From Candidatus Kaiserbacteria bacterium (GTDB lineage: Bacteria; Patescibacteriota; Minisyncoccia; Phycocordibacterales; JABAAK01), in assembly GCA_026713605.1 (NCBI GenBank), contig JAPOOC010000007.1, forward strand, positions 59,418 through 123,417: 64,000 nucleotides of DNA, written 5' to 3'. The notes beneath the pieces were generated by a model. That model ran no database searches. It was not told the DNA's origin and worked only from the letters and a program-made list of their open reading frames with translations. Below, piece after piece: positions 2,509 to 28,004 of the stretch (positions are counted from its first letter, which is position 1; each line of letters begins with the position of its first letter). The position numbers and the translations under genes were made by a program.

Positions 2509-3495
2509 ATGAACGACATTATTCCAGAAAACAAGCAGGCATTAAATCACTCACTAGACAGTTTGTTGCGTCCAAAAGTGTGGGATGAGTATATCGGGCA
2601 AGAGATGATAAAGAAGAACCTAAATATCCTCATAGCAGCAGCAAAAGAACGCGGACAAATGCCGGAACATATCCTGTTATACGGCCCAGCGGGACTCGGT
2701 AAGACAACATTGGCATATATCATCGGATCAGTATTAGAGGTGCCAGTACACACAACATCAGGACCAATGATAGAGCGAGCGGGAGATATTGTGTCACTTG
2801 CCTCAGCGATGGAAAATGGCGGAGTATTATTTATAGACGAGATACACCGTCTCAGTAAAAACATAGAAGAGGTACTATACCCCATTATGGAAAGTGGCAG
2901 TATTTCCATTATCGTCGGCAAGGGACCAACAGCTCGTTCAGTCGAGATCAACCTTCCACCAATTGTGATCATTGCAGCAACAACACAGGTGGGGAGGTTA
3001 TCAACGCCACTACGAACACGGTTTTCTGGAGGAGTAATGCGACTGATTCCATATACCGAGGATGAAATCGCACAAATTGCTATGCGGTCAGCGACAGTAT
3101 TAGATATTGACTTGCCGGAAGAGGCGGCAACCATCGTCGCGCAACGCGCTCGGAACACACCGCGGGTTGCCAATTACCTCCTCAAACGAGTGCGGGATTA
3201 CGCACAGATACACGGCACCGCTATTACCTCCGAACTTGTCCAAAAGGCCCTCTCTGAACGCGATATAGATGAACATGGACTCACCGCCGAAGATAGAGCG
3301 GTACTGAAAACCATCCGAGAAGCATTCAACGGAGGCCCTGTTGGCATCCAAGCCCTCGCTACCACACTCTCCGAAGACACTCGCACGGTAGAAGAGGTAT
3401 ACGAACCCTTTCTAGTACAAGCAGGATTCATAGAACGAACCCCTCGTGGCCGAAGCATTACCGAAAAAGGTATGCAGTATTTACAGTCACTGTAA
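2509..3495 (+). CDS. ruvB: Holliday junction branch migration helicase RuvB
   Basis: LLYGPAGLGKTTLA Walker A, FIDEIHRL, RuvB-like C-terminal winged helix; 328 aa. Confidence 0.9.
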   Translation: MNDIIPENKQALNHSLDSLLRPKVWDEYIGQEMIKKNLNILIAAAKERGQMPEHILLYGPAGLGKTTLAYIIGSVLEVPVHTTSGPMIERAGDIVSLASAMENGGVLFIDEIHRLSKNIEEVLYPIMESGSISIIVGKGPTARSVEINLPPIVIIAATTQVGRLSTPLRTRFSGGVMRLIPYTEDEIAQIAMRSATVLDIDLPEEAATIVAQRARNTPRVANYLLKRVRDYAQIHGTAITSELVQKALSERDIDEHGLTAEDRAVLKTIREAFNGGPVGIQALATTLSEDTRTVEEVYEPFLVQAGFIERTPRGRSITEKGMQYLQSL

Positions 3496-3541
3496 CAAGG
3501 GATTTTCATCAGCACCAGGCAGGTGGTATACTTTATACACT

Positions 3542-4072
3542 ATGGCTGGGCATAATAAGTGGTCAAAAATTAAACATAAGAAAGCGGGGACTGATGCGCA
3601 AAAAAGTAAGGTATTTGGACGATTAGCAAAAGTGTTGACGGTGGAGTCAAAGAATTGTGGCGGGGATCGAGGCAGTCCAGCACTGAAATCGGCCATTGAA
3701 CAGGCAAAAGCGGCAAATATGCCAGCACAGAACATCAATCGAGCAATTGAACGGGGGGTGGGAGGTAACGCAGAATCGCTGGAAACAATTACCTATGAAA
3801 TGTATGGTCCGGGTGGCTGCGCCCTGCTTATCAACGCACTGACTGATAATAAAAATCGAACGGCAGCAGAAATTCGGCATATTATTACCAAAAACGGGTA
3901 CACAGTTGGAACGCCAGGGTCAGCGGCATGGATATTCACAAAGCAGGAGGGACGCATTGTGCCGAGTACAACGGTATCGCTGTCAGAAGCGGATGCAAAA
4001 AAACTGGATGCGCTTGTGGCTGAGCTTGATGAACAAGAAGATACGCAAGAAATACTAACGAATAAAGTATAG
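3542..4072 (+). CDS. yebC: YebC/PmpR-family transcriptional regulator (short form)
   Basis: N-terminus MAGHNKWSKIKHKK matches YebC family; ORF track start 3446 trimmed to the internal Met that removes overlap with ruvB. Confidence 0.7.
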   Translation: MAGHNKWSKIKHKKAGTDAQKSKVFGRLAKVLTVESKNCGGDRGSPALKSAIEQAKAANMPAQNINRAIERGVGGNAESLETITYEMYGPGGCALLINALTDNKNRTAAEIRHIITKNGYTVGTPGSAAWIFTKQEGRIVPSTTVSLSEADAKKLDALVAELDEQEDTQEILTNKV

Positions 4073-4073
4073 T

Positions 4074-4562
4074 ATGAAAGTGCTTGCCATAGACCCGGGA
4101 TACGGACGCATAGGATTCGCCGTATTACTAAAAGAAGGCGGAAAAACCAACTTACTGTTTTCAGAATGCTTTGAGACCGAGAAGGAGACGGTATTTGAAG
4201 AACGGCTGAAAAAAATCGGTGACCGAATTCGAGATATTGCACAGGCACACCAGCCGGACTGCGCGGCGATAGAACGGTTGTTTTTCTCAAAAAATAAAAA
4301 GACCGCTCTGCAGACAGCAGAAGTGCGCGGGGTGTGTATATACACCACGAAAGAGTACAACTTGACCATAGCCGAGTACACGCCAAATCAGGTAAAGAAC
4401 GCAATTACCGGAAATAGTAATGCCACTAAAAGCGATGTCATTCGCATGGTGCCACGACTCATAACGCTGGATAGCAGAAAGCGGCACGACGACGAGTACG
4501 ATGCCATTGCCATCGGCATTACCCACCTCGTATCCGTGCCATACCTCGCTCAGCAGCAATAA
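4074..4562 (+). CDS. ruvC: Crossover junction endodeoxyribonuclease RuvC
   Basis: MKVLAIDPGYGRIGFAV N-terminus with catalytic Asp; 162 aa; conserved yebC-ruvC order. Confidence 0.85.
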   Translation: MKVLAIDPGYGRIGFAVLLKEGGKTNLLFSECFETEKETVFEERLKKIGDRIRDIAQAHQPDCAAIERLFFSKNKKTALQTAEVRGVCIYTTKEYNLTIAEYTPNQVKNAITGNSNATKSDVIRMVPRLITLDSRKRHDDEYDAIAIGITHLVSVPYLAQQQ

Positions 4563-4574
4563 ATAGAGTATCCT

Positions 4575-6914
4575 ATGAGTATCGTGAGAAAATTTCTTAC
4601 CGTGAAAAACAGCATACTTCTATCGCTTTCAGTCGCATTTTTTACCGCGGGATATGTAACCCTTTTCTACACTTTCACACCGCTCCCCGGCGTGGACATA
4701 CGCAATGTCGTGTCTAAGCAGTCCGTCATACTTACAGATCGCAATGATGAGTTTCTGTTTGATTTTTCCATAAACGAAAAAAGAACCTTTGTGCCGTACC
4801 AGGAAATATCAAAAAATATCATCAATGCGACCATCGCAATAGAAGACCATCTATTTTTTGAGCATAATGGTATTCGAGCTGACGCATTTTTACGCGCACT
4901 CATCAACAACATTCGCACCCTATCATTCAGTCAGGGTGGATCAACGATTACGCAGCAGGTCATTAAAAATGTGTTTCTCACGACAGAGAAAAAGATAGAA
5001 CGAAAAATGAAAGAGTTTCTCTTGGCAATTAAACTGGAGAAACAATTAGGTAAAGAGGAGATACTGGAAATGTACCTAAACACCATATCGTATGGTGGCG
5101 TGTCATACGGCGTGGCAGAAGCAAGCAAGTCGTTTTATGGAAAAGCACCGGATGAGCTGACAATCGCAGAGTCGGCATACCTCGCAGCAATCCCAAAGGC
5201 ACCGACATACTACTCACCGTACGGGAGGAATAGAAAAGCACTTGAAGCAAGAAAAAATCAGGTGCTACAACTAATGCTGGAACACAACCTCATAACAAGA
5301 GGCGAGTACCGTGAAGCGCGCGCAGAAGAGGTGTACTTTCAGAGCCAGAACGCATTCTCTATCCGAGCACCACACTTTGTCTTTTTCGTGAAAGAGCAGT
5401 TAGAAAAAGAACATGGGGCAGGACTGAAAAATCTTGAGGGGAAACAAGTTAAAACAACCATCGATATTGCTATGCAGGAGGAAATTGAGAAAATGATGCA
5501 GGAATTTGTAAAGACCGACCTAGAAAAGCAGTTTGCCGTCAGCAACATTGCATCTGTTGTGCTGTCGGCAAAAACAGGTGAGATTCTCTCGATGGTCGGA
5601 TCAAGGGATTTCTTTGATAATGCGGTGAATGGACGCGTAAACATCATCACCTCACTCCGGCAGCCGGGCTCAACCTTTAAACCAATAGCGTATGCAAAAG
5701 CAATTGAAAAAGGACTTACACCACAAACCATAGTGTACGATGTGCCGACGCAGTTTACCGCATTTTGTGACAAAGACCGATTTGAGAGTACGAAGAGTGG
5801 TTGCTACGCACCGGTCAACTACACAGGAAAGTTTGTGGGACCAGTATCACTGCGTGATGCACTCGCACAATCTATTAATGTGCCAGCGGTGAAGGTACTC
5901 TATATAGCAAATGTGGCAGAGGTCATTCAGCAGGCAAAAAAAATGGGCATCACCTCACTAACACAGGGGCAGAATCATTACGGACTAAGCTTAGTGCTCG
6001 GTGGTGCTGAAGTTACACCACTAGAGATAGCGCAAGCATACGGTGTATTTGCAAATGAGGGTATGCTTGCGCCATATGTGTGGCGATACGGAGAACAAAA
6101 GCAGGAAAAACGGGTGTTGGGGCGACAAACGGCACAAGACATCACTGACATGCTTTTTGATGACGATGCTCGAGCGCCAGTGTTCGGCAGAGGTTCGGCA
6201 CTACACATCACAAACCCGCCAGTTGCGGTGAAAACTGGCACCACAAATAACGCACGAGATATCTGGGTGATAGGGTATTCCCCAGACATAGTTGTATTGG
6301 TGTGGGCAGGGAACTCAGACAATACACCACTGGAAGATAACGCAGCTGGATTCTACCTTGCACCACTAATGAAAAACATCATCACGACAGTAGCAAAACA
6401 ATATGGCGAGCAGGGAACATACTTTACTCGGAACACGGTTCCCCCTAACCATGGTCCAGAAATATTATTCGGTGCGATAGACACTGACAACCCGCACACG
6501 ATACTCCACTATATCCAACGAAATAAACCAACGCGGCGTGCCGAAAATCCACTTGAAGAACCACAGTATGAACATTGGGAGTATGGCGTGCAGGACTGGC
6601 TTGAGCAGAACGATTTGCAAGAGGGTTATGATGGTCGCAGAAACAGCGCTGTAAAAAACTTTTCTGTCAAATCACCACGGTCAACGATATACCTAAACGA
6701 GATAACCACCATTGAGGTAACAAAAATACCGACACAAAATGTACAATACGAGTTCTATGTAAATGGCACGCTCATTGGGTCATCACGCTTGCCAATGTTA
6801 AGCTTTAATCCGGAAAAATTGCTAGACAAGAATGAGCGAGAAGCAGCTATTCGTGTTATTGCAAATACTGAAGAGGGGGTATATGTAGCCGAGGAGGTGT
6901 ATGAAATTGAGTAA
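4575..6914 (+). CDS. mrcA: Class A penicillin-binding protein (bifunctional GT51 transglycosylase / transpeptidase, PBP1A-like)
   Basis: N-terminal TM; GT51 motifs (IAIEDHLFFEHNG, RGGSTITQQ); transpeptidase SxxK (STFK), SxN, KTGT motifs; 779 aa. Confidence 0.85.
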   Translation: MSIVRKFLTVKNSILLSLSVAFFTAGYVTLFYTFTPLPGVDIRNVVSKQSVILTDRNDEFLFDFSINEKRTFVPYQEISKNIINATIAIEDHLFFEHNGIRADAFLRALINNIRTLSFSQGGSTITQQVIKNVFLTTEKKIERKMKEFLLAIKLEKQLGKEEILEMYLNTISYGGVSYGVAEASKSFYGKAPDELTIAESAYLAAIPKAPTYYSPYGRNRKALEARKNQVLQLMLEHNLITRGEYREARAEEVYFQSQNAFSIRAPHFVFFVKEQLEKEHGAGLKNLEGKQVKTTIDIAMQEEIEKMMQEFVKTDLEKQFAVSNIASVVLSAKTGEILSMVGSRDFFDNAVNGRVNIITSLRQPGSTFKPIAYAKAIEKGLTPQTIVYDVPTQFTAFCDKDRFESTKSGCYAPVNYTGKFVGPVSLRDALAQSINVPAVKVLYIANVAEVIQQAKKMGITSLTQGQNHYGLSLVLGGAEVTPLEIAQAYGVFANEGMLAPYVWRYGEQKQEKRVLGRQTAQDITDMLFDDDARAPVFGRGSALHITNPPVAVKTGTTNNARDIWVIGYSPDIVVLVWAGNSDNTPLEDNAAGFYLAPLMKNIITTVAKQYGEQGTYFTRNTVPPNHGPEILFGAIDTDNPHTILHYIQRNKPTRRAENPLEEPQYEHWEYGVQDWLEQNDLQEGYDGRRNSAVKNFSVKSPRSTIYLNEITTIEVTKIPTQNVQYEFYVNGTLIGSSRLPMLSFNPEKLLDKNEREAAIRVIANTEEGVYVAEEVYEIE

Positions 6915-10815: not shown

Positions 10816-11637
10816 ATGACAAGTGCGCGCTTTCATGTTGCTGGGGGATTTACCTTGATTGAAGTATTGATTTCTGTTGCTATTATGGGGATTATTATAG
10901 GAATAGTATTTTTTAATTACGGAACTTTTACGAGTCGTTCACTGGTGCGAGTGCGGGCAACAGATTTGGGAGAATACATTCGATTCGCACAAGAGCAGGC
11001 GGGCGCAGCAGAGAGTTTTTCAACAAATACGGCACTGCCAACGGAAGGGTTTCAAGTGGTGCGATTGAAAGTGCGCGAAGGAGTACTGAAAAGCGTTCGG
11101 CTTGAAAAAGCACCAGGAGCATTCACAAGTTTTACAGAAGGGTCTAACTTCGCCTTAGGTCGGGACTCTATCGTGCCAGGATCAAGGCAGGTCGCACTAG
11201 AAACATCCGAACGGTACTTCATTGATGTGTGCTTTATTGATGAGGGGAACTCCCCGCAGTACACGCGAGAGCAAGTAACTTTGCAGGGCGATACAGGATG
11301 TGCAACCAATTCTATGTTGTGCAATGAGCCAAACCCGGTGGTAATAGGGTACAGTGCAGCACAGATAAAACGAAACAATTTTGATGCCCATTTTTCCGTT
11401 GAACAGCCAAGTCGAGAAGTACACACAAACATCATACCGGTAACGGTTTCCGGTGACAAAGAAACATACCAATATGCAGATACAAAACCGAACGGAGCAA
11501 CATCTCGGATGTCAGAAAAATATGAGGGAGTGCGTATTGTATTCATTACCGAAGAAGGGTACCGGCAAAGCATTGATGTGTTTCAAACAGGGCTGGTAGG
11601 ATTTCGGGCAACGGATTCAAGAGATGGATGTCAGTAG
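10816..11637 (+). CDS. Type IV pilin / pseudopilin-like protein
   Basis: Class III signal peptide: short basic leader then G-FTLIEVLISVAIMGIIIG (prepilin peptidase site and N-methylation motif). Confidence 0.7.
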   Translation: MTSARFHVAGGFTLIEVLISVAIMGIIIGIVFFNYGTFTSRSLVRVRATDLGEYIRFAQEQAGAAESFSTNTALPTEGFQVVRLKVREGVLKSVRLEKAPGAFTSFTEGSNFALGRDSIVPGSRQVALETSERYFIDVCFIDEGNSPQYTREQVTLQGDTGCATNSMLCNEPNPVVIGYSAAQIKRNNFDAHFSVEQPSREVHTNIIPVTVSGDKETYQYADTKPNGATSRMSEKYEGVRIVFITEEGYRQSIDVFQTGLVGFRATDSRDGCQ

Positions 11638-11699
11638 CAGGTGCCATCAACAAGTAAAAATAACCACTGGATGCCTTGCAAGGTTCTTACCTGAGTATA

Positions 11700-13622
11700 C
11701 TAAGAAGCAAAAATAACAGGAACGATAATGGGACGCTTCTTCATTTCTGAATAGAGGTAGTTTTGGGTCTCACGAACAAGATTTCGTTTAATGGCGTCCA
11801 AGTTTATCATTTTGTTGCGACGAAGGGATCGCTCCACAGAACGACGCGCTATCATACGAGACCGGTTAATGAGTGGCTGCGACTCTTTGAGGTACACAAA
11901 GCCACGAGAAATAATGTCAGGAGATTTTTTCACCTTTTTGAGCCGCTTATTGATAAGAACAATCACCACAAAAATACCCTCTTCTTTAAGGGTGATTCTG
12001 TCATTGAGGACAACATCTTGTGCGGTGCCGACAGCATTACCATCCACAACAACAACCTCTGTCGGCATAGTATAATCCTGCATCGTAATTGACTTACTGT
12101 CAGGACTGATATCCACAATAGATCCGTTGTTCGGAAGAATAATATTTTCTTCAGGCATACCAATATCACGAAGTATTTGGGCATGCGCAGAGAGCATAAA
12201 GTGGTAGCCGTGAATAGGAGTAAAAAATGTCGCATCAATATTCTCGTGGATCCACTTAAGTTCATCTCGGTTTGCATGCCCACTAGAGTGGACATCGCTG
12301 GTTTGGTAGGTAATAAGGTCAACACCAAGCTTAGAAAGACGATCTTTCAAATTCTGCACCGGCTCTTCATTGCCGGGAATAATTGAAGAGGAAAAAACAA
12401 CCGTGTCTCTGTTATCCAGCTTAAGATGCCGATGCGTGCCACGGGACATTCTGTCCATTGCAGTAAAATTGTCTCCCTGAGCACCAGTTGCAAGCACAAG
12501 AAGTTTCTCTTTCGGGTAATCCCCCATTTTTTCAACAGGAATAATGGCGGTGAGCGGAACTTTTAGCAGCCCCAACTCAGAAGCAATGGTGAGGTTGGTT
12601 ATCATTGACCTACCCTGCACTATCACTTTCCTGCCACTTTCAATAGCGTGCTCAATAATTCTGATAGTACGCTCTATCTGCGTTGAAAATGCGGAAAGAA
12701 TAACACGACCTTTGGTCTCTTTGATGATTTTACCAATGGTTTCCACCACGCGTTTCTCGGGGAGAGAAAAGCCAGGTCGCTCTGCGTTTGTTGAGTCCGC
12801 CATGGTGAGAAGAATATTTTTCTTCTTAATGGCGGCAAACTCCTTAACCTCCTCAGGGCCGACAACACCATCTTCGTGAGTAAGTTTAAGGTCACCAGTA
12901 AATACAATCGCGCCGAGCGGGGTATCTATAACAATACCCATTGCATCAGGGATGGTGTGGGTAACAGAAAAAAAAGTGAGGATAAGATTTTCACTAAGAG
13001 TGAGAACAGTGCTTTTCTCCACCTCGTGGTAAACGATGGGTTCCTTACTCTCAAATTCACTCTGTCTGTTTCTAATAAGTTCAATACTTAATTTCCGGGA
13101 AAAAATTGGAGGGTTACCAATTCTATTCAGAACAACTGATATACCGCCGATATGGTCAAGGTGGGCATGCGATATCACCAACCCTTTTATTTTTTCTTTT
13201 CGCTCCTCAAGGTATTGAATGTTTGGAACAATAAAATCAATACCGGGCGTGTCGTTCTGTGCAAACTTCATGCCACAATCAAGCAACAAAATTTCATCTT
13301 CATACTCAATACCATACATATTTTTCCCAATTTCTCCGACACCGCCAAAAAATAAAATACGGACAGCGTCTTTTTCCTGTCGCGGAATATTGAGTGTCGA
13401 CTCGGCATCGTAGTTGGTGGTGAGCTCACGCGACCCGATAAGTCCGCCTTGCCGTCGAAGTGGCTTTTGATAAAGTCCAGAGGAGACCTTTTGTTTTTTG
13501 ACATCACCTGATCCAGAGGTTTTTTTTGACGCACTCTTTTTGGAAGATGCCTTCTTGCCAGCACTGGTACGCTCGATCACTTTTTTAGTAGTTGTAGGTT
13601 TCTTTGTTTCTGCCATACGCAT
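11700..13622 (-). CDS. rnj: Ribonuclease J (metallo-beta-lactamase / beta-CASP), catalytically intact paralog
   Basis: HxHxDH motif VISHAHLDHIGG, downstream His/Asp motifs (SVTHTIPDA, FTGDLK), beta-CASP and C-terminal domain; basic Lys-rich N-terminal extension; 640 aa. Confidence 0.85.
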   Translation of the reverse strand: MRMAETKKPTTTKKVIERTSAGKKASSKKSASKKTSGSGDVKKQKVSSGLYQKPLRRQGGLIGSRELTTNYDAESTLNIPRQEKDAVRILFFGGVGEIGKNMYGIEYEDEILLLDCGMKFAQNDTPGIDFIVPNIQYLEERKEKIKGLVISHAHLDHIGGISVVLNRIGNPPIFSRKLSIELIRNRQSEFESKEPIVYHEVEKSTVLTLSENLILTFFSVTHTIPDAMGIVIDTPLGAIVFTGDLKLTHEDGVVGPEEVKEFAAIKKKNILLTMADSTNAERPGFSLPEKRVVETIGKIIKETKGRVILSAFSTQIERTIRIIEHAIESGRKVIVQGRSMITNLTIASELGLLKVPLTAIIPVEKMGDYPKEKLLVLATGAQGDNFTAMDRMSRGTHRHLKLDNRDTVVFSSSIIPGNEEPVQNLKDRLSKLGVDLITYQTSDVHSSGHANRDELKWIHENIDATFFTPIHGYHFMLSAHAQILRDIGMPEENIILPNNGSIVDISPDSKSITMQDYTMPTEVVVVDGNAVGTAQDVVLNDRITLKEEGIFVVIVLINKRLKKVKKSPDIISRGFVYLKESQPLINRSRMIARRSVERSLRRNKMINLDAIKRNLVRETQNYLYSEMKKRPIIVPVIFAS

Positions 13623-13634
13623 TATGTAATGTAA

Positions 13635-15416
13635 TTATTGGGTAAATATAACCGGAACAACAATCGGTCGCTTGTTGGTCTCATTTACCAAAAAGGTCTG
13701 CACCTCTTTTTGTATTGCCTTTTTCATCTTATCAATCTCAACCCTACCAGTTTCCTTCGCCTCTTTTTCAGCGGCTTTCTTGATAACGATACGGACACGG
13801 GCAATAAGGTCCTGTGACTCGCGTAAATAGATAAAGCCACGAGAAATAATGTCAGGAGATTTTTTAACCTCAAGGGTTTTTCGGTCAATAAAGACGATAA
13901 TAATAAAGATGCCTTCTTGTGAGAGAGTATTTCGGTCCTGCACGACAACATCCTGTACCGGAGAAAGAGTATGACCATCAACAGAGACGGCGGTAGTTTC
14001 CATTCGCTGCTTCTGTTTTTTAATAACCTTACCATCAGGGCTGACATCTATTATTGAACCATTTTCCGGCACAGCAAAAGAATCCTGCGACATGCCGAGT
14101 TCACGGAGTATGTGCGTATGTGCATTAAGCATGTAGTGATAACCTTGAACAGGGATGAAGAACTTCGCATTAAGAAGTTGGTGCATCCAGCGAAGCTCAC
14201 TCTTGTTGGCATGTCCGCTACCCTTAACATCGCTGGTATTGTACGATCGGGTAATCGCACCAAGGCGGGAAAGACGATCCTTAAGATTCTGTGTCGCTTG
14301 CGCATTCGCAGAAATCATCGGTGAAGGAAATATAATAGTATCTTTTGTGATAACAGAAGTGTGGCGGTAACTTTCACGAGATATGCTCTCCAACGCTTCA
14401 CAAATTTCATTTTCTTCAGCAGTAAAAGCAATAAACACCTCCTCAGAATCATCATCTTTTTTCATCTCCTGAATAGGAATAAGGGACTCCTTTGGCATTT
14501 GCATGATACCAAGTTCCGAGGCAGTTTGAAGGTTTTCCAAAAGCAACGCACCTTCCACATAAGTTTTTTTACCAGCCCGGAACGCTTTTTCCAATAGCAT
14601 TGCATTCCTCTTTATTTGAGACGGAAAGAGCGGTATCAGTACACGGTGCGGCGCTTCCTGCATCATCTGGTCAACCTCTTCAACTATCTCATGGTCGGTT
14701 ATGGCAAAGCCCGGGCGTTCTGATCCAACCGAATCAGCAAGAGAAAGAATAACATCTTTCTCTTTCGCCGCTTTGAACGCCTCCTCCTCTTCAGCACGAA
14801 TGATTTCCTTGTTGTGACTGACCTTAAGGTTGCCAGTATAAGCAATACAGCCAGAAGGGGTCTCTATAAGCACACCAAGCGTACTCGGCGCATTGTCGGC
14901 AATGCCAAAGAAGTGGAGGGTAACATCGTCGTTGACAACAACTGACTCCGCTTTTTCCACTTCGTGAAATGACACATGCAATGTTCCGCGGAGCGTATTC
15001 TGGTGGTTTTCTATAATGGCCTTAGTAAGTTTTCTGGTGTACAGCACAGGGTCTCCCAAAGCACGAGTAACATACGGAATAGCACCAATATGCTTCATAG
15101 AGGCATCTGTAACGATCAGCGCCTTGACATCTTGCTTCCTATCTTTGAGGTATTGGATATTCGGCATAACAGCATTGACACCAGGGGTGCTGCTCTCGCC
15201 GAACATAGTGCCACACTCCAATAGCACAATGGTGTTATTGTACTCAATGCCGTACATATTTTTGCCAATCTCTGATATGCCACCAAACACAAGCGTACGA
15301 ATCTCACCTTTGTTTGGTTTAGGAATAAATACTTTTTTTGGTTTTTTGGTGTCGACTGTTTTGCTTTTTATGTGTGACGGGCGTGATTGTCTGTAGTTTC
15401 TTTTTGGTATTGCCAT
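13635..15416 (-). CDS. Ribonuclease J paralog with degenerate catalytic motifs (probable pseudo-enzyme)
   Basis: Colinear with upstream RNase J but motif II is IVTDASMKHIGA (HxHxDH lost), and GIADNAPST / YTGNLK replace the His/Asp ligands; 593 aa. Confidence 0.8.
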   Translation of the reverse strand: MAIPKRNYRQSRPSHIKSKTVDTKKPKKVFIPKPNKGEIRTLVFGGISEIGKNMYGIEYNNTIVLLECGTMFGESSTPGVNAVMPNIQYLKDRKQDVKALIVTDASMKHIGAIPYVTRALGDPVLYTRKLTKAIIENHQNTLRGTLHVSFHEVEKAESVVVNDDVTLHFFGIADNAPSTLGVLIETPSGCIAYTGNLKVSHNKEIIRAEEEEAFKAAKEKDVILSLADSVGSERPGFAITDHEIVEEVDQMMQEAPHRVLIPLFPSQIKRNAMLLEKAFRAGKKTYVEGALLLENLQTASELGIMQMPKESLIPIQEMKKDDDSEEVFIAFTAEENEICEALESISRESYRHTSVITKDTIIFPSPMISANAQATQNLKDRLSRLGAITRSYNTSDVKGSGHANKSELRWMHQLLNAKFFIPVQGYHYMLNAHTHILRELGMSQDSFAVPENGSIIDVSPDGKVIKKQKQRMETTAVSVDGHTLSPVQDVVVQDRNTLSQEGIFIIIVFIDRKTLEVKKSPDIISRGFIYLRESQDLIARVRIVIKKAAEKEAKETGRVEIDKMKKAIQKEVQTFLVNETNKRPIVVPVIFTQ

Positions 15417-15430
15417 GAATCTGTAGTTAG

Positions 15431-17185
15431 TTAGTTCTCAACAAAAGGTTTCCACACTTTCTCTCGCTGTATATGCCACTTGTGCACATTGGTAAATCGA
15501 TCACTCGAATCCGTTATTCTGCCGAGTCGTCGCTGCCCTTTTTGCAAACCAACCCCTTCAACACGCTGCGGCAGTATATAGAGAAAGTGAGGCGAATAAA
15601 GAAAAATTGCCGGAACATTTTTCATCATCTCTACCTTGATAGCAGTATACACCATATCCCGCCAACTGTCATGAGGAGGTTGGGATAACTGCTCAAGAAA
15701 GCGCTGTGAGGGGGTTGATTGTTCAAGACCAGTAAGGAGGTCGTTAAGTATCGGACTTCCAAAGCTGGTGATTGAGGCAAGATTTTCCCGATCCCCAGAT
15801 TTCCACAAGGCAACCAAATCGTTCACCGTGTTGGCTTCATAACCATAGAGCATAGCATCAAATTCCTTTTTTTGTATAGTGTCGGAAACCTCTTTTTCTG
15901 TAATAGTATGTATCGTCACAGCAATGCCAAGTCGTCGCCATCCATCCGCAAGAATGTCCGCTATCTGTTGCGCCTCATCGATATTTGGAACAACAAAAGA
16001 GATCTTGAATGGGACGCCGTCTCGTTCACGGTATCCGGTGGCGGACTCAAATCTCCAGCCAATGTCTTCCAGTGTCTGCTTGATGTCTTCCAGCGGTACA
16101 ACCTGCTCTGGTAACATAACATCAGTTGGGAGAGGGTGTTGTATAGGGTTGGCATAGGTATGAAACACTTGGGAAATAATGGACTCCCGGGTAACCCACC
16201 GAGAAAGAACACTGCGAAGGAAAGAGTCCTGAAGGATCCGCCCGTCTTCGGCATTGAAGAATACACCAAAGACACGATTGGTGTTAGCGGTATGAAGTCG
16301 ACCCTGCTCTTCCTTTTTCTGTTTAAGAAGAGATCCCACTTCGCCACCAGCAATACCATAGACACTGTCTATGGTGCCAACTTCATATGCCCGGAGGAGG
16401 TCAACAACATCAACAAAAAAGTGCAGGGTAATTTTTTTAATAAAAGGTCTGCCAAGAACATAACTAGAAAACTCTTCCAAGGTTATGCTGGTGGGACGCT
16501 CGTCAAGAGTCACAGATTCCTGGCTGTACTTGTATGGTCCTGCACCGATGTGCACTCCTGACCCGTTGTAATTGCGCCGCTTGTCAGTCGGTATTTTTTT
16601 CCAGATGTGTTCAGGGAGAATGGGGATGGTAAATTGTCCAGGAAAATGGAGATTGCCTTCCGGAACAGTAACAATGAGTGTGATGTCATCCACCGCCTCA
16701 ACCGCAACGCCGACCCATGCTGCATGATGCGGACTCTTATATTTTTGCTCCTGTTGAAGCATGCCGACGGTATAAAGGACATCCGCTGTGGTTATGAGGG
16801 AGCCATCGTGAAACGATGCATGTTCTCTGAGTGTAAATAAGTATCGAGTCGGACTTTCTTGTTTCCACGACTGAGCAAGATGTGGAACGAAACCACCACT
16901 GAGATCACGCTGAAGCAAGCCAGCATGCATCAACGCCGCAATATCTTTCTCCGCAGCGTTATTTGCATAAAGAGGATTTTTATACACCGGCACACCAACA
17001 ACACCTTCATCAATTTCTCCGCGACGAATAGTTGTTTCATAGAGAAAGGTAGTGTTAAGGGCGGTAAGAAGAAACACAAGCTGGACAAAGAGAACACCCA
17101 TAAGGATGAGAATGATGCAGGCATCGGACGGAGGCAACTTTTTGTACATACCCGGATGAGGGCAAAATGATATGAACGACTTCAT
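15431..17185 (-). CDS. ABC transporter substrate-binding protein, family 5 (OppA/DppA-like), membrane-anchored
   Basis: SBP_bac_5 signature region (AQSWK...YLFTLREHASFHDGSLITTADVLYT); N-terminal TM; likely true start at the Met near 17149. Confidence 0.75.
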   Translation of the reverse strand: MKSFISFCPHPGMYKKLPPSDACIILILMGVLFVQLVFLLTALNTTFLYETTIRRGEIDEGVVGVPVYKNPLYANNAAEKDIAALMHAGLLQRDLSGGFVPHLAQSWKQESPTRYLFTLREHASFHDGSLITTADVLYTVGMLQQEQKYKSPHHAAWVGVAVEAVDDITLIVTVPEGNLHFPGQFTIPILPEHIWKKIPTDKRRNYNGSGVHIGAGPYKYSQESVTLDERPTSITLEEFSSYVLGRPFIKKITLHFFVDVVDLLRAYEVGTIDSVYGIAGGEVGSLLKQKKEEQGRLHTANTNRVFGVFFNAEDGRILQDSFLRSVLSRWVTRESIISQVFHTYANPIQHPLPTDVMLPEQVVPLEDIKQTLEDIGWRFESATGYRERDGVPFKISFVVPNIDEAQQIADILADGWRRLGIAVTIHTITEKEVSDTIQKKEFDAMLYGYEANTVNDLVALWKSGDRENLASITSFGSPILNDLLTGLEQSTPSQRFLEQLSQPPHDSWRDMVYTAIKVEMMKNVPAIFLYSPHFLYILPQRVEGVGLQKGQRRLGRITDSSDRFTNVHKWHIQREKVWKPFVEN

Positions 17186-17290
17186 TGTATTATAGTAAAT
17201 AAAAAAACCAACACATCATACTCTCTTGCAGTATACCGTGATTGTAAATCGGCTTGCATGAACTATAAACGGTATGTGGCAAGGTGTTGA

Positions 17291-17524
17291 CTAAATCGTT
17301 ACAAGTGGAAAAATAACGCTGGCGACAAAAAGTATCGCAATAACGAAAGTCGCTATAAACACTATTTTTTCTGAACCGCGTCGTTTCGCATTGCCGGTTT
17401 CAGAAATGTCACCACCACCAAACGCGCTACCAACATTAGCTTCACCTCGCTGCAGAAGGATGGCAATGATAAGTAAAATAGCACTGGTAACCTGTACCAC
17501 CTGGGTAATAAATTGAATACTCAT
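17291..17524 (-). CDS. secG: Preprotein translocase subunit SecG
   Basis: 77 aa, two TM helices flanking a Gly-rich loop (LLQRGEANVGSAFGGG), typical SecG. Confidence 0.7.
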   Translation of the reverse strand: MSIQFITQVVQVTSAILLIIAILLQRGEANVGSAFGGGDISETGNAKRRGSEKIVFIATFVIAILFVASVIFPLVTI

Positions 17525-17579
17525 AAGCGTAGATTATCCTCAGTATACCACAAAAGAAAATCAGACACCCAGATGCAAG

Positions 17580-17652
17580 AGCCATCTGCCGGATTTGAAC
17601 CGGCGACCTCTCCCTTACCATGGGAGTGCTCTACCGACTGAGCTAAGATGGC
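17580..17652 (-). tRNA. tRNA-Thr (anticodon GGU)
   Basis: Cloverleaf folds on reverse complement: acceptor GCCATCT/AGATGGC, anticodon loop AUGGUAA, T-loop TTCAAAT; CCA not encoded. Confidence 0.8.
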
Positions 17653-18372
17653 AATATGTGTAATTATAGTATACTCTGAAACAAGAAAAGGGATACGAGG
17701 GAGTACACAATAGCATTTGTAATCATAAGGTATTTGAAGAAGATAATAAAGAAGCCATCCAGTTTTCCACACAGCATTGTCAAAAGAACAATGTATGGTC
17801 TACTATATACAGTAGACAGGGAATGTATATTGCCTGAAGAAAAATTACAATTTCTAGGGAAGAAGCATTATGCAAACTTGAGGACTGCAAAAAGCAATCG
17901 TCAGTAAGGTGTAAATAGCTCTACCCAGAGGTAATAAAAAGGCACAAAAATAACCGCACGCATCTGCCATAACGCTGGCGCAACGCCAGATGGCAGAGCT
18001 TGGTTACCCTGCCAATTGATCCTTTGTGAGAAAAATATTTCTCACAAACTGTTCCTTAAAATTAACATTGTAAGAAAACTACAATGTAACACAACACACA
18101 CTACTGTTCAAAAGTACTTCCATGCACAAATGAGAAGTGCTCTAAGTAATTCAAACATCTTGAATTACAGCGTGGCCGAAAGCCACAAAAATGACAGCAA
18201 CAACAGAAGTGCTGTCTGTGGTCGAAAACCACCATGAAGGATGATCTGCTCGGGGCAGCAGCAATAGCATCCTTCTAAACACCACACTTTTTTCTTTTTT
18301 GAAAGAAAGCAAAGAGGGTGTTCTCATAACCCCTCGGTTAGACAAAGAGCGTTTTAATTTTTATATTACAAA

Positions 18373-18402
18373 CCTCGGTCAACCGAGGGGATATTATTTT
18401 TT
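18373..18402 (+). terminator. Candidate intrinsic terminator (CCTCGG-TCAA-CCGAGG plus U-rich tract) in the large intergenic region upstream of rpoD
   Basis: 6-bp GC stem followed by ATATTATTTTTT; an upstream CCCCTCGG (18340-18347) could pair alternatively with the 3' arm. Confidence 0.35.
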
Positions 18403-18604
18403 CAAACAATAGAATATTTTTTTGTCAATAATCGTAAAAAGCAAAGTATCAGATGAAAGAAAAGATTTTAAGCCGATAGGCAGAATAGGCAGAAAAAATG
18501 AGAAAATGTTTTCCAGAAGTTTTCCAGAAATGGCAGAGGTGTAAAAGAGGCGACATGATACAATAAAAACACAGTAATCGTAGCGATGCCTCCAAAAGAA
18601 AACA

Positions 18605-19951
18605 ATGAAAAAAAAGGTAAGTAAAAAAAGAAAATCAGCAGTTAAGCAGAAAGGGCGGATGGTAAAAAGACGCCCGGCGCGCAGTAAAAAGAAAAAGAGT
18701 GCCACCAAAAAAACAGGTCGAAAAACGCAACACACCAAACCGGTAGAAATACTCGAGGACTTGATTGACACCGCACAGCAGGAAAAAAATCTGTACAACT
18801 CAATTCCAGATAAGTACAAGAAAAAAATTAAAGCCATGGTCAACAAGTGTAAGAGCAAGGGATATGTCACATCAGAGGAAGTGTTAGAGTATGTCGGGCT
18901 AGAAGAGTGTGATAACACAGGTAATGTGTGGAGTTGCATTGAAGAAGTATTAAAAACAAGTTGTGTTGACTTGGTAGAAAACGAAGGGTTGTTACAGGAA
19001 GTTAACCTGGAATCAGACCCGCGATTCCCTGAATTTGATTCATCCTCATATGATTCTATACAAATGTATCTACGAGATATTGGAAGGTACCCATTGCTCA
19101 GCGCAAAAGAAGAACAAGAGCTCGGCAAGAAAATAATGGCGCGAAGGGACATACTGGAAAAGCGAGATAAAAAACGATTGACACCAGCAAAGGAAAGAAA
19201 GATTTTGAATGAAGGGCTGGAAGCGCGTAACAAACTGGCAACCGCTAACTTGCGATTAGTGGTTTCCATTGCAAAAAACTACGCCGGAAGAAGTCGGGAT
19301 CTAAGTTTGCTTGATCTAGTGCAGGAGGGATCAGAAGGGCTGTACAAAGCAGTTGATAAGTTTGAACCACAACGCGGATTCAAATTTTCAACCTATGCGA
19401 CATGGTGGATTAAACAATCAATTGTCCGAGGTTTGGCAGATAAGTCAAGAACAATTCGTATACCAGTACACATGTCTGAAACAACACAACGCTACCAAAA
19501 GGCGATGGTGCAGCTGGAAAAAGACCTAGGACGCACGCCAACAGTACAAGAGGTGGCAACCGAACTTGGCATTGACCCGGAAAAAGTATATATGATACGA
19601 AGAATATCACAGGACATTGTGCAGTTGGAACGACCGCTAGGCGGTAGCAACGATGAAGAGGGCAATACGCGCATATCTGACACCGTTGAAGATCACGATC
19701 AGGAAACACAGGAAAAAATGGTATCAAAGGACATCTTAAAAGATCAGATACAGGGCATCCTAAAAGATCTTTCGCCGCGAGAGCGGCAGGTAATAGAAAT
19801 GCGACACGGATTGGAGGATGGTATACAGCACACCTTAGAACAGATAGGGACAGAGCTCAAGGTAACCCGTGAGCGAGTGCGACAAATAGAATCCCGTGCA
19901 CTTGAAAAATTGCGAGCGCACACTGAAGTAAAAAAATTAGAGAGTTATTAA
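18605..19951 (+). CDS. rpoD: RNA polymerase sigma-70 factor RpoD
   Basis: Regions 1.2, 2 (YATWWIKQSI), 3, 4 (helix-turn-helix ELKVTRERVRQIE); Lys-rich N-terminal extension; 448 aa. Confidence 0.9.
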   Translation: MKKKVSKKRKSAVKQKGRMVKRRPARSKKKKSATKKTGRKTQHTKPVEILEDLIDTAQQEKNLYNSIPDKYKKKIKAMVNKCKSKGYVTSEEVLEYVGLEECDNTGNVWSCIEEVLKTSCVDLVENEGLLQEVNLESDPRFPEFDSSSYDSIQMYLRDIGRYPLLSAKEEQELGKKIMARRDILEKRDKKRLTPAKERKILNEGLEARNKLATANLRLVVSIAKNYAGRSRDLSLLDLVQEGSEGLYKAVDKFEPQRGFKFSTYATWWIKQSIVRGLADKSRTIRIPVHMSETTQRYQKAMVQLEKDLGRTPTVQEVATELGIDPEKVYMIRRISQDIVQLERPLGGSNDEEGNTRISDTVEDHDQETQEKMVSKDILKDQIQGILKDLSPRERQVIEMRHGLEDGIQHTLEQIGTELKVTRERVRQIESRALEKLRAHTEVKKLESY

Positions 19952-25849: not shown

Positions 25850-27520
25850 TTACGCCACCAGGTAAGGGACAATCTCGGTGGTGCCGAGGTGTTCCGCGGT
25901 CTGCCCGGGGGGCAGAATGCGGATGCGGGAGTTGAAGCCACGGTCGACTTCAAACTCCTCGGAGAGGGTCTTTCCGACTGGAATCGTCCGGAACAGAACC
26001 TCTTCCTCTTCGTCGTCTCTGATCTGGACGGCGAAGGTAATCTCCGTCTCCTGTGGCAGACGGAGAGAGATTGCATAGTAGGCGACCTCGTCATCCCCTC
26101 CGAGACGACGAGGTTCAAGGACGCAGCCGGACGCCCGTAAGGCATCCTTTACTGCATCCTGCAGCTCGCCGCATTGCGCAACAAGTGCTGATTTCTCAGC
26201 ATTCGCCGCCTCAAGGGCGACGCCGAGCTCGGTATTCTGCCGCTCAGCAGCGACGAGGGCGGAGAAGCGACGCTCAGCAGCAACCGCTTCAACTTCTGCT
26301 GATTCAGCGACTTTCGCCGCCTCATCAGCAGAAACTCTCGCCGCCACTTGTGCGGCCTCTGCCGCATCAAGATCTGCGGTCAAGGCAGAAACTTGCGTTT
26401 CTGCGTGCCGCAGGTCAGCAGCGAGGCGACCGATTGCAACATCGGCTTTCCGTGCCTCGCCGTTGAGGCGGCTGAGCCCTTCCGACGCCTCATCGTGTGC
26501 CGCCTCGGCATCAGAGAGGGCACTCGCAAGACCGTCGGCATCAAGAACCTTGACACCGTTTTCAATGGCCTTCGCTGCCGCTTCGGACGCCTGTTTCGCC
26601 TCAGCGAGAGCGGCCTCCGATGTAAGGGCGGCTTTCGCCGCCTCTTCAACGGCCTCCCAAGCGCTCTCAGCACCGCTGATAGCGTCTTGGTGGGCACCTT
26701 GTAGGTGCCCTTGTTCCGCCTCGGCGGTCTGCAGGGTACCCTGCAGAGCTACCACCTGCTGCTTTGCAGCAGCAAGGTTTGCCGTCGAAGCAGCAAGATC
26801 CGCCGCAGCAAGATCCGCCACCTTGCGCTCTTCAAAAGCGCTAAGGCGGACTTGCACGCCGGCAGCGTGCGCTTCCGCGCGCTCCGCATGCTCCCGCAGC
26901 GGAGTCGCGACGGCTTCTGCCGTCGCTTGTGCGGTCTCGGCAGCGTGCCGCGCTTCCACCGCTTCAGCGGCCGTTTTCTCGGCAACCGCCAAAGCATCGT
27001 TAGATGCTTGGAGGGCGCCTTCGATTTTGGCGATCTTGTCGTCTGTCACCTTGGCTTCCGCCTTAGCGGTTTCAACCGCCTCCTTGGCGACTTGAAGGTC
27101 CTTCTCCAGACCTTCAACGGTCGCCTCAGCGGCGTCAAGATCCTCTTCGGAGGACTCTAAGTCCTCCTCAAGACCCTTGATGTTCTCAAGGGTCTTGGGA
27201 TCCGGCGCCATGAGCTGCAACACCGGACCCACCATGGCTGCGATGATGAATACCACCGCTTCCATCTGGCCGAACACCAAAGAAGGTGTCCAGCCAAATC
27301 CGACAAATCCAGCCGCCAGAAGTAGGGCGAGCAGACCAAGGATCCCCCCTCCCATGCGGGGGAAAAACGAGTTTTCGTAACTCCGCACCATGATCAGTGC
27401 GGAACTTAGCAGCAGCAAAGCTGCTGCTGATACTGTCTGGGTTTCCGCATCAAGTGCGGAAAAGGCCACGACGGTCACCGCAGTGAGCATCAAGGCTGCG
27501 ATCGCAATCATTCTCTTCAT
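25850..27520 (-). CDS. Polytopic membrane-anchored, Ala/Glu-rich coiled-coil protein (unknown function)
   Basis: Start set at MKRMIAIAAL with strong SD AGGAGG (ORF track extends to 27646); ~4 TM segments, ~380 aa heptad-like Ala/Glu/Lys repeats, small C-terminal domain; locally much higher GC than neighbours. Confidence 0.65.
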   Translation of the reverse strand: MKRMIAIAALMLTAVTVVAFSALDAETQTVSAAALLLLSSALIMVRSYENSFFPRMGGGILGLLALLLAAGFVGFGWTPSLVFGQMEAVVFIIAAMVGPVLQLMAPDPKTLENIKGLEEDLESSEEDLDAAEATVEGLEKDLQVAKEAVETAKAEAKVTDDKIAKIEGALQASNDALAVAEKTAAEAVEARHAAETAQATAEAVATPLREHAERAEAHAAGVQVRLSAFEERKVADLAAADLAASTANLAAAKQQVVALQGTLQTAEAEQGHLQGAHQDAISGAESAWEAVEEAAKAALTSEAALAEAKQASEAAAKAIENGVKVLDADGLASALSDAEAAHDEASEGLSRLNGEARKADVAIGRLAADLRHAETQVSALTADLDAAEAAQVAARVSADEAAKVAESAEVEAVAAERRFSALVAAERQNTELGVALEAANAEKSALVAQCGELQDAVKDALRASGCVLEPRRLGGDDEVAYYAISLRLPQETEITFAVQIRDDEEEEVLFRTIPVGKTLSEEFEVDRGFNSRIRILPPGQTAEHLGTTEIVPYLVA

Positions 27521-27750
27521 TTCTTTTCCTCCTGGCAAGCACTCGCTTGCCATCTTTATGCCCTCTTCTCTTTGAGGAGGGCGAAGTTCTTTGTAATTTG
27601 TAATGTTCAAAGCGGGGGATATGCACAAAACCCCTACCTCCATCACAAATTATACATAATGATATAATATCATAAAACAGCAAAAAACGCAAGTTTCAAA
27701 GCCACCCCAAAAACAGCAAAAACACCTCTATCTTGAGGGGTTTTAAGTAC

Positions 27751-27782
27751 AAAAAAAAACCAACACCTAAACCGGGTGTTGG
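27751..27782 (-). terminator. Rho-independent terminator (minus strand) downstream of hisS region
   Basis: CCAACACC-TAAACCG-GGTGTTGG hairpin followed on the minus strand by U9. Confidence 0.65.
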
Positions 27783-27800
27783 TTCTGTATCTAGACGCGC

Positions 27801-28004
27801 CTATTGAGCGGCGTCTATCTCCGTCGTGAGGAGTTCCTGCGCCTTCTCGGCGCGCGAGGCACCTGCCGAAATAAATTCGGCAAGCCCTCCAATGTCCCAC
27901 ACCTCATGGAGATGGTGGGGGTGATAGGGGCCACCTATTGCGACCCCTCCCAAACCACTGCGATCTGGTTCGAAGAGGATGGTGCCTTTAATCTCGAAAT
28001 GCAT
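27801..28004 (-). CDS. Hypothetical small protein between hisS and its terminator
   Basis: 67-aa ORF bracketed by hisS stop and a minus-strand terminator; no family recognised. Confidence 0.25.
   Translation of the reverse strand: MHFEIKGTILFEPDRSGLGGVAIGGPYHPHHLHEVWDIGGLAEFISAGASRAEKAQELLTTEIDAAQ

What the first reader, a model, noticed from the sequence alone, without database searches (positions are those of the whole stretch)
11700..15416. Tandem RNase J paralogs, the second catalytically degenerate
Two colinear RNase J genes sit head-to-tail. The first keeps the beta-lactamase HxHxDH motif (HAHLDH) and downstream His/Asp ligands. In the second the equivalent positions read DASMKH, ...DNAPS... 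and ...TGNLK, so most metal ligands are substituted. This suggests a non-catalytic RNase J2-like partner, more extreme than B. subtilis J2 which keeps the motifs. Both carry lysine-rich N-terminal extensions.
Basis: seen in the sequence. Interest (0 to 1): 0.55.

Follow-up and report, generated by a model that had tools for sequence, protein, structure and literature searches.

The report
Dead RNase J copy beside live one
A candidate-phyla-radiation bacterium (labelled Candidatus Kaiserbacteria) encodes, directly upstream of its normal RNA-degrading enzyme RNase J, a well-conserved duplicate that has lost six of the seven side chains that bind the catalytic metal ions, so it most likely acts as a non-cutting partner subunit, as in the known RNase J1/J2 and CPSF73/CPSF100 pairs.

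Summary
Two minus-strand genes 12 nt apart encode RNase J paralogs that are 42% identical over 561 residues with one 1-residue gap in the beta-CASP domain. The downstream gene (13622..11700) keeps every metal ligand. The upstream gene (15416..13635) has B. subtilis J1 H74→D, H76→S, D78→K, H142→D, D164→N and H390→Q. It keeps only H79 and the motif-B His.

This is not an error or a pseudogene. Thirty-three protein clusters share the substitution pattern, dN/dS is about 0.04-0.05, and the C-terminal dimerisation domain is as conserved as in the active enzyme. SecG–SBP_bac_5–degenerate J–catalytic J synteny holds in all seven relatives examined.

The copy arose by tandem duplication inside Patescibacteria. 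It is not an ortholog of Firmicutes RNase J2. Other CPR lineages carry similar dead copies, once in the reverse gene order.

The best reading is a non-catalytic subunit that forms hetero-oligomers with the adjacent active RNase J; the physical interaction is inferred, not shown. This is a new, more extreme and independently evolved variant of a known kind, of moderate interest.

The parts
17291..17524 (-). secG-like gene (77 aa), first gene of the conserved SecG-SBP-RNase J block
   Evidence: ORF. PF03840 SecG sits at the same position in relatives L081, L082, L084, L085 and L086. tblastn SecG hits lie upstream of the SBP gene in many loci.
15431..17185 (-). SBP_bac_5-like gene (584 aa, hydrophobic N-terminal segment), 14 nt upstream of the degenerate RNase J
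   Evidence: ORF. PF00496 was called at this position in all relatives. A homolog lies directly upstream of RNase J in 81 of 86 loci.
13635..15416 (-). degenerate (predicted non-catalytic) RNase J paralog, 593 aa
   Evidence: AF2 model pLDDT 77; the best Foldseek hits are all RNase J structures.
15090..15107 (-). degenerate motif 2, D104-A-S106-M-K108-H109, in place of HxHxDH
   Evidence: Translation; alignment to 3ZQ4; clade counts.
14895..14897 (-). D174 codon at the motif 3 His position (B. subtilis H142)
14829..14831 (-). N196 codon at the motif 4 Asp position (B. subtilis D164, the bridging ligand)
14211..14225 (-). retained phosphate-loop / motif B segment K398-G-S400-G-H402 (HxSGH in active enzymes)
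   Evidence: Across the 33 clusters the positions read K/R 33/33, S 29/33 and H 33/33.
14145..14147 (-). Q424 codon at the motif C His position (B. subtilis H390)
13623..13634 (-). 12-nt intergenic spacer between the two RNase J genes (no terminator; co-transcription inferred)
11700..13622 (-). catalytic RNase J, 640 aa (public aa), with an ~85-aa Lys-rich N-terminal extension
   Evidence: TIGR00649 scores 458.5 bits against a cut-off of 400. All ligands are intact.
13152..13169 (-). intact motif 2, H152-A-H-L-D-H157
   Evidence: Translation.

Best explanation
The upstream gene encodes an RNase J pseudo-enzyme. It is a full-length, correctly folded RNase J (MBL core, beta-CASP domain and C-terminal dimerisation domain), but its two-metal centre has been dismantled, so it cannot perform the canonical two-metal RNA hydrolysis. 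It arose by tandem duplication of rnj inside the ancestral SecG-SBP_bac_5-rnj block of a Paceibacteria/Kaiserbacteria lineage. It is co-transcribed with the active RNase J. Most likely it assembles with the active enzyme through the conserved C-terminal domain into a hetero-dimer or hetero-tetramer that has one active and one dead site. Its retained basic/Ser/His phosphate loop and RNA channel would let it hold or present RNA 5' ends and so tune the substrate choice or activity of the active subunit. This matches what has been proposed for Firmicutes RNase J2 with J1, and what is known for CPSF100 with CPSF73. Shown here: ligand loss, conservation, purifying selection, synteny, and an origin independent of J2. 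Inferred: lack of activity, co-transcription, hetero-oligomerisation and the specificity-factor role.
For: Ligand loss holds after correct alignment: 6 of 7 ligands are replaced. All 33 degenerate-clade clusters lack at least five ligands, while 87 of 87 catalytic-type relatives keep all of them. The fold is intact: AF2 mean pLDDT 77 and pTM 0.72, and every top Foldseek hit is an RNase J structure, including the RNJ2-RNJ1 integrative model 9a5v. The gene is under purifying selection: dN/dS is about 0.04-0.05 against 0.03-0.04 for the catalytic neighbour, and dN is nearly equal (0.089-0.10 against 0.090-0.098) in close comparisons. Forty-seven percent to 85% identity is retained across the clade, with 75 invariant columns. 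The C-terminal (dimerisation) domain is as conserved or more conserved in the degenerate clade (0.75-0.88) than in the catalytic clade (0.66-0.80). The C-terminal domain is required for RNase J dimerisation (PMC4477667). The phosphate loop is retained: K/R 33/33, S 29/33, His 33/33. The pair is always adjacent to an active RNase J, with 1-12 nt gaps, in seven relatives (L081-L086, L090). The precedent is B. subtilis J2, which acts through contact with J1 and not through its catalytic site.
Against: No direct evidence of a complex exists, because the tools here cannot model hetero-oligomers. The B. subtilis inter-subunit salt bridge R544-D449 is not recognisable: R544 aligns with Lys in both paralogs, and D449 aligns with Pro or Thr (my mapping). 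Staphylococcal J2 shows residual, largely metal-independent activity that depends on H80 and E166 (PMC11815676), so ligand loss alone does not prove zero activity. A sister lineage with the same neighbourhood (L089, a 511,782-bp contig) manages with a single RNase J, so the dead copy is not universally required.
Confidence: 0.6

Rival explanations
1. The degenerate protein is a stand-alone RNA-binding protein. For example, it could be a 5'-end binder that protects transcripts from, or competes with, the active RNase J, working as a homodimer rather than as a subunit of a mixed complex.
For: The phosphate loop, the RNA-channel scaffold and the Lys/Arg-rich N-terminus are retained. The conserved C-terminal domain would support homodimers equally well. 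In fungi, inactive RNase II-like pseudonucleases act as RNA-binding proteins (PMC8097288, abstract).
Against: The gene is strictly adjacent to the active gene, with tight spacing, in every lineage examined, and this holds even where the gene order is reversed (L087, 4-nt overlap). That pattern is what is expected for subunits made in stoichiometric amounts. Characterised paralog pairs in this family (J1/J2, CPSF73/100, IntS11/9) all heterodimerise.
Confidence: 0.2
2. The degenerate paralog is still a nuclease or other hydrolase. It would use a remodelled site made of oxygen ligands (D104, D/E174, N196, Q424) plus H109, either binding Mg2+/Ca2+ or working by a metal-independent acid-base mechanism like the one proposed for S. 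aureus J2.
For: The replacements are non-random and partly conserved: D at H74 in 27/33 clusters, S at H76 in 28/33, Q at H390 in 30/33, H79 kept in 29/33. S. aureus J2 activity depended mainly on H80 and E166 and tolerated H76A and H144A.
Against: Three of the seven positions vary freely within the clade. The D78 position is K/T/Q/S/N. The H142 position is D/E/S/K/G/A/N. The D164 position is N/S/A/P/G. This is incompatible with a conserved metal site. The carboxylate equivalent to E166/D164, which is critical in J2, is absent in all 33 clusters. Lys at the D78 position in 19/33 clusters would place a positive charge in the metal pocket.
Confidence: 0.1
3. The feature is an artefact or a decaying pseudogene: a sequencing or assembly error in the motif region, or a recent duplicate drifting neutrally.
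For: None was found beyond the loss of the motifs itself.
Against: The identical protein is recorded from three contigs and several archives (P0001). Intact ORFs of 570-660 aa with the same substitutions occur in 33 clusters down to 42% identity. dN/dS is about 0.05.
Confidence: 0.01

Closest known systems
Firmicutes RNase J2 (RnjB) paired with RNase J1 (B. subtilis, Staphylococcus, Streptococcus, Enterococcus)
   Same: A second, full-length RNase J paralog with impaired catalytic motifs coexists with a fully active one. J2 forms a complex with J1, and its catalytic site is dispensable for its in vivo role in B. subtilis. Motif C His is Q in S. epidermidis J2, as it is here.
   Different: J2 keeps the site-1 ligands (H74/H76/H142 equivalents), still binds one Mn and has weak activity. 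The protein here has lost both sites. rnjA and rnjB are unlinked in B. subtilis (my own knowledge), whereas these two genes are adjacent. The protein is not orthologous to J2: it groups with Patescibacteria RNase J, and phmmer scores show no preference for J2 (J1 263/257 bits against J2 254 bits).
CPSF73/CPSF100 and IntS11/IntS9 (eukaryotic beta-CASP nuclease / pseudo-nuclease heterodimers)
   Same: An active MBL/beta-CASP nuclease is paired with a paralog that has lost its zinc ligands and acts as a structural or regulatory partner (stated in the discussion read). Integrator beta-CASP subunits are recovered as distant fold matches.
   Different: These are eukaryotic 3'-end endonuclease complexes, their heterodimer forms through different C-terminal domains, and they share no common duplication event with the pair here. 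Homology is only at the level of the beta-CASP superfamily (about 14% identity).
Long-form RNase Z (Trz1/ELAC2)
   Same: An active and an inactive MBL domain work together.
   Different: The two halves are fused in one polypeptide. It is a tRNA 3'-processing enzyme and has no beta-CASP domain.
Other degenerate RNase J paralogs in Patescibacteria found here (L053, L087, L088; P0126, P0127, P0131, P0134, P0152)
   Same: They are also adjacent to an intact RNase J and downstream of the SBP_bac_5 gene, and they have lost most ligands.
   Different: Their substitution patterns differ (for example ITNSSLEN, LTNSRLEH, ISRAHPSH). The gene order is reversed in L087. One group branches separately in the NJ tree, so some of these are probably independent events. 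None is described in the literature searched.

Membership tests
RNase J family (TIGR00649 / NF047419; MBL + beta-CASP + RNase_J_C) | Three-domain architecture, colinear with solved RNase J structures | tested here: met
   Both proteins align end to end with 3ZQ4/6K6S (E=4e-77 for the degenerate protein, about 1e-124 for the catalytic one). Pfam finds RNase_J_b_CASP and RNase_J_C in both. The top Foldseek hits of the AF2 model of the degenerate protein are all RNase J.
RNase J family (TIGR00649 / NF047419; MBL + beta-CASP + RNase_J_C) | Score above the curated family cut-off (TIGR00649, 400 bits) | tested here: not met
   The catalytic paralog scores 458.5 bits and passes. The degenerate paralog scores 343.3 bits and fails. 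Neither reaches the J1 'exception' model cut-off of 820 bits. The 'not met' status refers to the degenerate paralog.
RNase J family (TIGR00649 / NF047419; MBL + beta-CASP + RNase_J_C) | Metal-binding motifs 2 (HxHxDH), 3 (H), 4 (D) and C (H) | tested here: not met
   In the degenerate paralog 6 of 7 ligands are replaced, and Pfam finds no Lactamase_B hit. In the catalytic paralog all are present.
RNase J family (TIGR00649 / NF047419; MBL + beta-CASP + RNase_J_C) | 5'-3' exo- and endoribonuclease activity | not testable with these tools
   Requires biochemistry.
Firmicutes RNase J2 (RnjB) orthologous group | Descent from the J1/J2 duplication of Firmicutes | tested here: not met
   In the NJ tree the degenerate clade (bootstrap 91) is sister to its own partner catalytic clade (bootstrap 70) and nested among Patescibacteria RNase J, away from BsuJ1/SepJ1/SepJ2. 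Seventy-nine of 80 other Paceibacteria loci have a single rnj in the same SBP-rnj context. NJ with long branches is a weak method.
Firmicutes RNase J2 (RnjB) orthologous group | Site-1 ligands (H74, H76, H142) and one bound metal retained; only site 2 degenerate | tested here: not met
   J2 reads HGHDEN (B. subtilis) or HGHEHA with TTHSIPD and YTGEFK (S. epidermidis). The protein here reads DASMKH, IADNAPS and YTGNLK.
Pseudo-enzyme partner of an active paralog (CPSF100 / IntS9 / J2 type; a functional class, not a homology family) | Catalytic residues lost while the fold is kept | tested here: met
Pseudo-enzyme partner of an active paralog (CPSF100 / IntS9 / J2 type; a functional class, not a homology family) | Maintained by purifying selection over a long time | tested here: met
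   dN/dS is about 0.04-0.05, although dS is saturated. Thirty-three clusters span down to 42% identity.
Pseudo-enzyme partner of an active paralog (CPSF100 / IntS9 / J2 type; a functional class, not a homology family) | Physical complex with the active paralog that modifies its activity | not testable with these tools
   Support is indirect only: invariant adjacency and a conserved C-terminal dimerisation domain.

The most novel reading that the evidence does not exclude
Patescibacteria have repeatedly (at least two or three times) and independently of Firmicutes turned a tandem duplicate of RNase J into an obligate, fully metal-free subunit. Their main RNA-decay enzyme would then be an asymmetric hetero-oligomer with one live and one dead site, a bacterial convergence on the CPSF73/CPSF100 design. 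The dead subunit's retained K/R-x-S-G-H loop would act as a dedicated 5'-end sensor that delivers substrates to the live subunit.
Probability: 0.35. Interest if true: 0.6.

Novelty: new variant of a known kind. Interest (0 to 1): 0.42.

Why it matters
Whether RNase J2-type paralogs act as nucleases or as non-catalytic cofactors has been debated for 15 years. A 2026 preprint argues for the cofactor role in B. subtilis. Here evolution has run the clean experiment: it removed essentially the whole metal centre while keeping the rest of the protein under selection as strong as on the active enzyme, always next to that enzyme. This supports the idea that an asymmetric active/dead RNase J pair has a selectable function of its own. 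It also supplies a naturally inactive protein for structural and biochemical work. Finally, public annotation labels both proteins simply 'ribonuclease J', which overstates the nuclease complement of these reduced genomes.

Tried and rejected
It was still useful as a control set.

2. dN/dS: synonymous sites are saturated (dS 1.2-2.7, undefined for deeper pairs). The ratios are therefore only order-of-magnitude estimates.

3. I mapped the B. subtilis J1/J2 interface salt bridge R544-D449 onto the two paralogs. R544 aligns with Lys in both, and D449 aligns with Pro (degenerate) or Thr (catalytic). This is uninformative for or against heterodimerisation.

4. The promoter and terminator scan of 11000-18700 gave counts no higher than shuffled controls, and no obvious Shine-Dalgarno sequence lies in the 12- and 14-nt spacers. 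Co-transcription rests on spacing and synteny alone.

5. Rfam found only tRNAs in the window and no regulatory RNA near the operon.

6. Literature searches for RNase J in Patescibacteria/CPR and for RNase J pseudo-enzymes found no description of these proteins. The library is incomplete, so this is absence of evidence only.

7. The pseudogene or sequencing-error explanation is rejected.

8. Orthology with Firmicutes J2 is rejected.
Full report
**1. What is there**

The region holds two ORFs on the minus strand. They are 15416..13635 (593 aa) and 13622..11700 (640 aa; the public gene call is 638 aa, P0052). A 12-nt spacer separates them.
- They follow a 584-aa SBP_bac_5-like gene (17185..15431, 14-nt gap), a secG-like gene (17524..17291) and a tRNA-Thr.
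- The source names attached to the identical public proteins say 'ribonuclease J [Candidatus Kaiserbacteria bacterium]' for both.
- The 'first' gene of the finding (11700-13622) is therefore the downstream gene in transcription. The degenerate copy is transcribed first.

**2.

The two proteins are 42% identical (69% positives) over 561 residues, with one single-residue gap located in the beta-CASP domain.
- Pfam finds Lactamase_B, RNase_J_b_CASP and RNase_J_C in the 640-aa protein, but only RNase_J_b_CASP and RNase_J_C in the 593-aa protein.
- With NCBIfam, the 640-aa protein passes the RNase J subfamily cut-off (TIGR00649, 458.5 against 400 bits). The 593-aa protein does not (343.3 bits).
- The phmmer alignment to B. 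subtilis J1 (PDB 3ZQ4) has no gap from residue 11 through motif 2. It gives H74→D104, H76→S106, D78→K108, H79=H109, H142→D174, D164→N196, H368=H402 and H390→Q424, and motif 1 D37→E67.
- I checked the codons by direct translation.
- Assignment of these residues as the two-zinc ligands rests on the cited motif (74-HGHEDH-79), on the two-metal mechanism described in PMC4477667, and on my knowledge of the T. thermophilus and B. subtilis structures.
- An AF2 model built with a 21-sequence alignment has mean pLDDT 77 and pTM 0.72. Its best PDB matches are all RNase J, with core TM about 0.8.

**3. It is not an error or a decaying gene**

A search of the 5.8-billion-protein collection found 33 clusters (P0001-P0031, P0057, P0071) with the same kind of degeneration.

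| Position (B. subtilis J1) | Residues in the 33 degenerate clusters |
|---|---|
| H74 | D 27, E 2 |
| H76 | S 28, A 3 |
| D78 | K 19, T 6, Q 3, S 2, N 1 |
| H79 | H 29, Y 2 |
| H142 | D 14, E 10, others 8 |
| D164 | N 25, S 4, others 3 |
| H390 | Q 30, K 2, E 1 |

- All 87 catalytic-type relatives in the same list keep every ligand.
- Against two relatives with 83% amino-acid identity, dN/dS is 0.04-0.05 for the degenerate gene, 0.03-0.04 for the catalytic gene and 0.04-0.13 for the SBP gene.
- In those close comparisons dN is nearly equal for the two RNase J genes (dS is saturated, so these are rough values).
- At greater depth the degenerate copy evolves about 1.6 times faster (dN 0.31-0.32 against 0.19-0.20; amino-acid identity 59/51/42/43% against 74/68/64/64% in L081-L084).

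**4. What is kept and what is lost**

Column conservation (26 degenerate against 39 partner catalytic sequences) is lower in the degenerate clade through the MBL and beta-CASP domains. In the C-terminal domain it is equal or higher (0.75-0.88 against 0.66-0.80).
- The C-terminal domain is what D. radiodurans RNase J needs in order to dimerise (PMC4477667).
- The loop that recognises the 5'-monophosphate and carries motif B (HxSGH; D. radiodurans H377 and S379) is retained as [K/R]-x-S-G-H. The basic residue is present in 33/33 clusters, Ser in 29/33 and His in 33/33.
- Positions conserved in both clades but with different residues include B. subtilis S330→P, S332→P, Q301→E and H390→Q.
- Three of the former ligand positions vary freely within the clade. 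That argues against a rebuilt metal site.

**5. Context and origin**

In seven relatives spanning the whole degenerate clade the order is SBP_bac_5 – degenerate J – catalytic J, with gaps of a few nucleotides, and secG lies upstream in most (L081-L086, L090).
- In 80 loci from other Paceibacteria, 79 have a single, intact RNase J.
- An SBP_bac_5 homolog lies directly upstream of RNase J in 81 of all 86 loci then in hand (the 80 control loci plus the six paired loci L081-L086). SBP–rnj is therefore ancestral, and the extra copy is an in-situ tandem duplicate.
- L089, a 511,782-bp contig from a lineage at the base of the partner catalytic clade, has the same neighbourhood with one RNase J.
- In a neighbour-joining tree (576 columns, 100 bootstraps) the degenerate clade (bootstrap 91) is sister to its partner catalytic clade (bootstrap 70). 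Both sit inside Patescibacteria RNase J and away from B. subtilis J1 and S. epidermidis J1/J2.
- phmmer scores of the degenerate protein show no preference for J2 (263 and 257 bits to J1, 254 bits to J2).
- The protein is therefore not an RnjB ortholog. NJ with such unequal rates is weak evidence for the exact branching point.

**6. The phenomenon is wider**

A profile of the degenerate clade, searched against 1.84 billion 50%-identity representatives, gives only two clusters of this clade (P0029 and P0057, 918 and 867 bits, next best 583). The top 150 hits nevertheless contain other RNase J homologs with broken motifs (P0126, P0127, P0131, P0134, P0152, P0164, P0180, P0187, P0191).

Three of these were placed in context:
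- L053: SBP – degenerate (ITNSSLEN…) – catalytic.
- L088: SBP – degenerate – catalytic.
- L087: SBP – catalytic – degenerate, the reverse order, with a 4-nt overlap.

One group (L053, P0126, P0127, P0131, P0134) branches separately from the Kaiserbacteria-type clade. Repeated origin is likely but not proven.

**7. Comparison with what is known**

- The 2026 preprint on B. subtilis (10.64898/2026.05.27.728192) reports that J2's motif is already partly degenerate (HGHDEN). It also reports that an H76A mutant behaves like wild type for the tested targets, that contact with J1 through R544 is required, and that J2 is best seen as a specificity cofactor. It draws the parallel with CPSF73/CPSF100 and long RNase Z.
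- S. epidermidis J2 reads HGHEHA, keeps the motif 3 His, has Glu at motif 4 and Gln at motif C. S. aureus J2 binds one Mn and keeps weak activity that depends on H80 and E166 (PMC11815676).
- The protein here goes further, because both metal sites are gone, including the carboxylate that is critical in J2.
- The concept is therefore known. What is new is an independent, more complete and operon-linked instance in Patescibacteria. I found no description of it in the searchable literature.

**8. Mechanism proposed**

- Shown: a folded RNase J without a metal centre, conserved like an essential protein, and always encoded next to the active enzyme.
- Inferred: it is co-transcribed with the active enzyme (spacing only). 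It pairs with the active RNase J through the C-terminal domain to give an asymmetric oligomer. It uses its retained phosphate loop, RNA channel and basic N-terminus to bind RNA, so that it modulates which substrates the live subunit degrades.
- Confidence: about 0.9 that it is a functional non-catalytic protein, and about 0.6 that it works as a subunit of a mixed complex.
- Rivals: a stand-alone RNA binder or competitor (0.2), a remodelled active site (0.1), an artefact or pseudogene (0.01).

**9. Verdict**

Three corrections apply: the strand and gene order, the state of the B. subtilis J2 motif, and analogy rather than orthology with J2. This is a new variant of a known kind, of moderate interest (0.42).

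Noticed in passing
window 15431-17524 (-); loci L001-L090: The gene order secG – SBP_bac_5-like (with a hydrophobic N-terminus) – RNase J is conserved across Paceibacteria. An SBP homolog lies directly upstream of rnj in 81 of 86 loci. Why a solute-binding-protein-like gene is so tightly linked to the main RNase is unexplained.
   Followed up: partly
window 13368-13622 (-), residues ~49-77 of the catalytic RNase J: The Lys-rich N-terminal extension of the catalytic enzyme contains a short motif (G49, L50, K53, G63, R65, L67, S75, T76, L77). It is at least 95% conserved in the partner catalytic clade and has no counterpart in the degenerate paralog. It could be a docking peptide.
   Followed up: no
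L053 4088-7689; L087 3122-6537; L088 626-3679: Other Patescibacteria lineages carry different degenerate RNase J copies next to an intact one. In L087 the dead copy is downstream and overlaps the live gene by 4 nt. Further degenerate representatives (P0127, P0131, P0134, P0164, P0180, P0187, P0191) were not placed in context.
   Followed up: partly
L089 (contig of 511,782 bp), 3274-6911: A lineage at the base of the partner catalytic clade has the same GroES/EL…SBP–rnj–HhH-GPD neighbourhood but only one, intact RNase J. This is either the state before the duplication or a secondary loss.
   Followed up: no
PDB 6K6W alignment: S. epidermidis RNase J2 has Gln at the motif C His position (PVQGEF). 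This is the same replacement that is 30/33 conserved in the Patescibacteria degenerate clade (PVQGYH), an apparently convergent H→Q change.
   Followed up: no
window 53631-53962 (+) and 54001-56000: ARAGORN calls three tandem tRNA-Leu(taa) genes about 123 nt apart, but Rfam confirms only the first at gathering score. The next 2 kb has unusually low G+C (0.337, against about 0.46 for the window).
   Followed up: no
window 26001-28000: There is a local G+C peak (0.572) with negative GC skew. It was not examined.
   Followed up: no
window 17653-18604: A stretch of about 950 nt without a convincing ORF lies between tRNA-Thr and the sigma-70 gene (18605-19951, +). It contains a perfect GC-rich hairpin at 18373-18388 that reads as a terminator on both strands. 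Rfam finds no family there.
   Followed up: no
window 10816-11637 (+): The gene convergent with the catalytic RNase J starts MTSARFHVAGGFTLIEVLISV…, a prepilin-type N-terminal methylation motif. Relatives L085 and L086 have clusters of N_methyl (pilin-like) genes at the same side of the operon.
   Followed up: no
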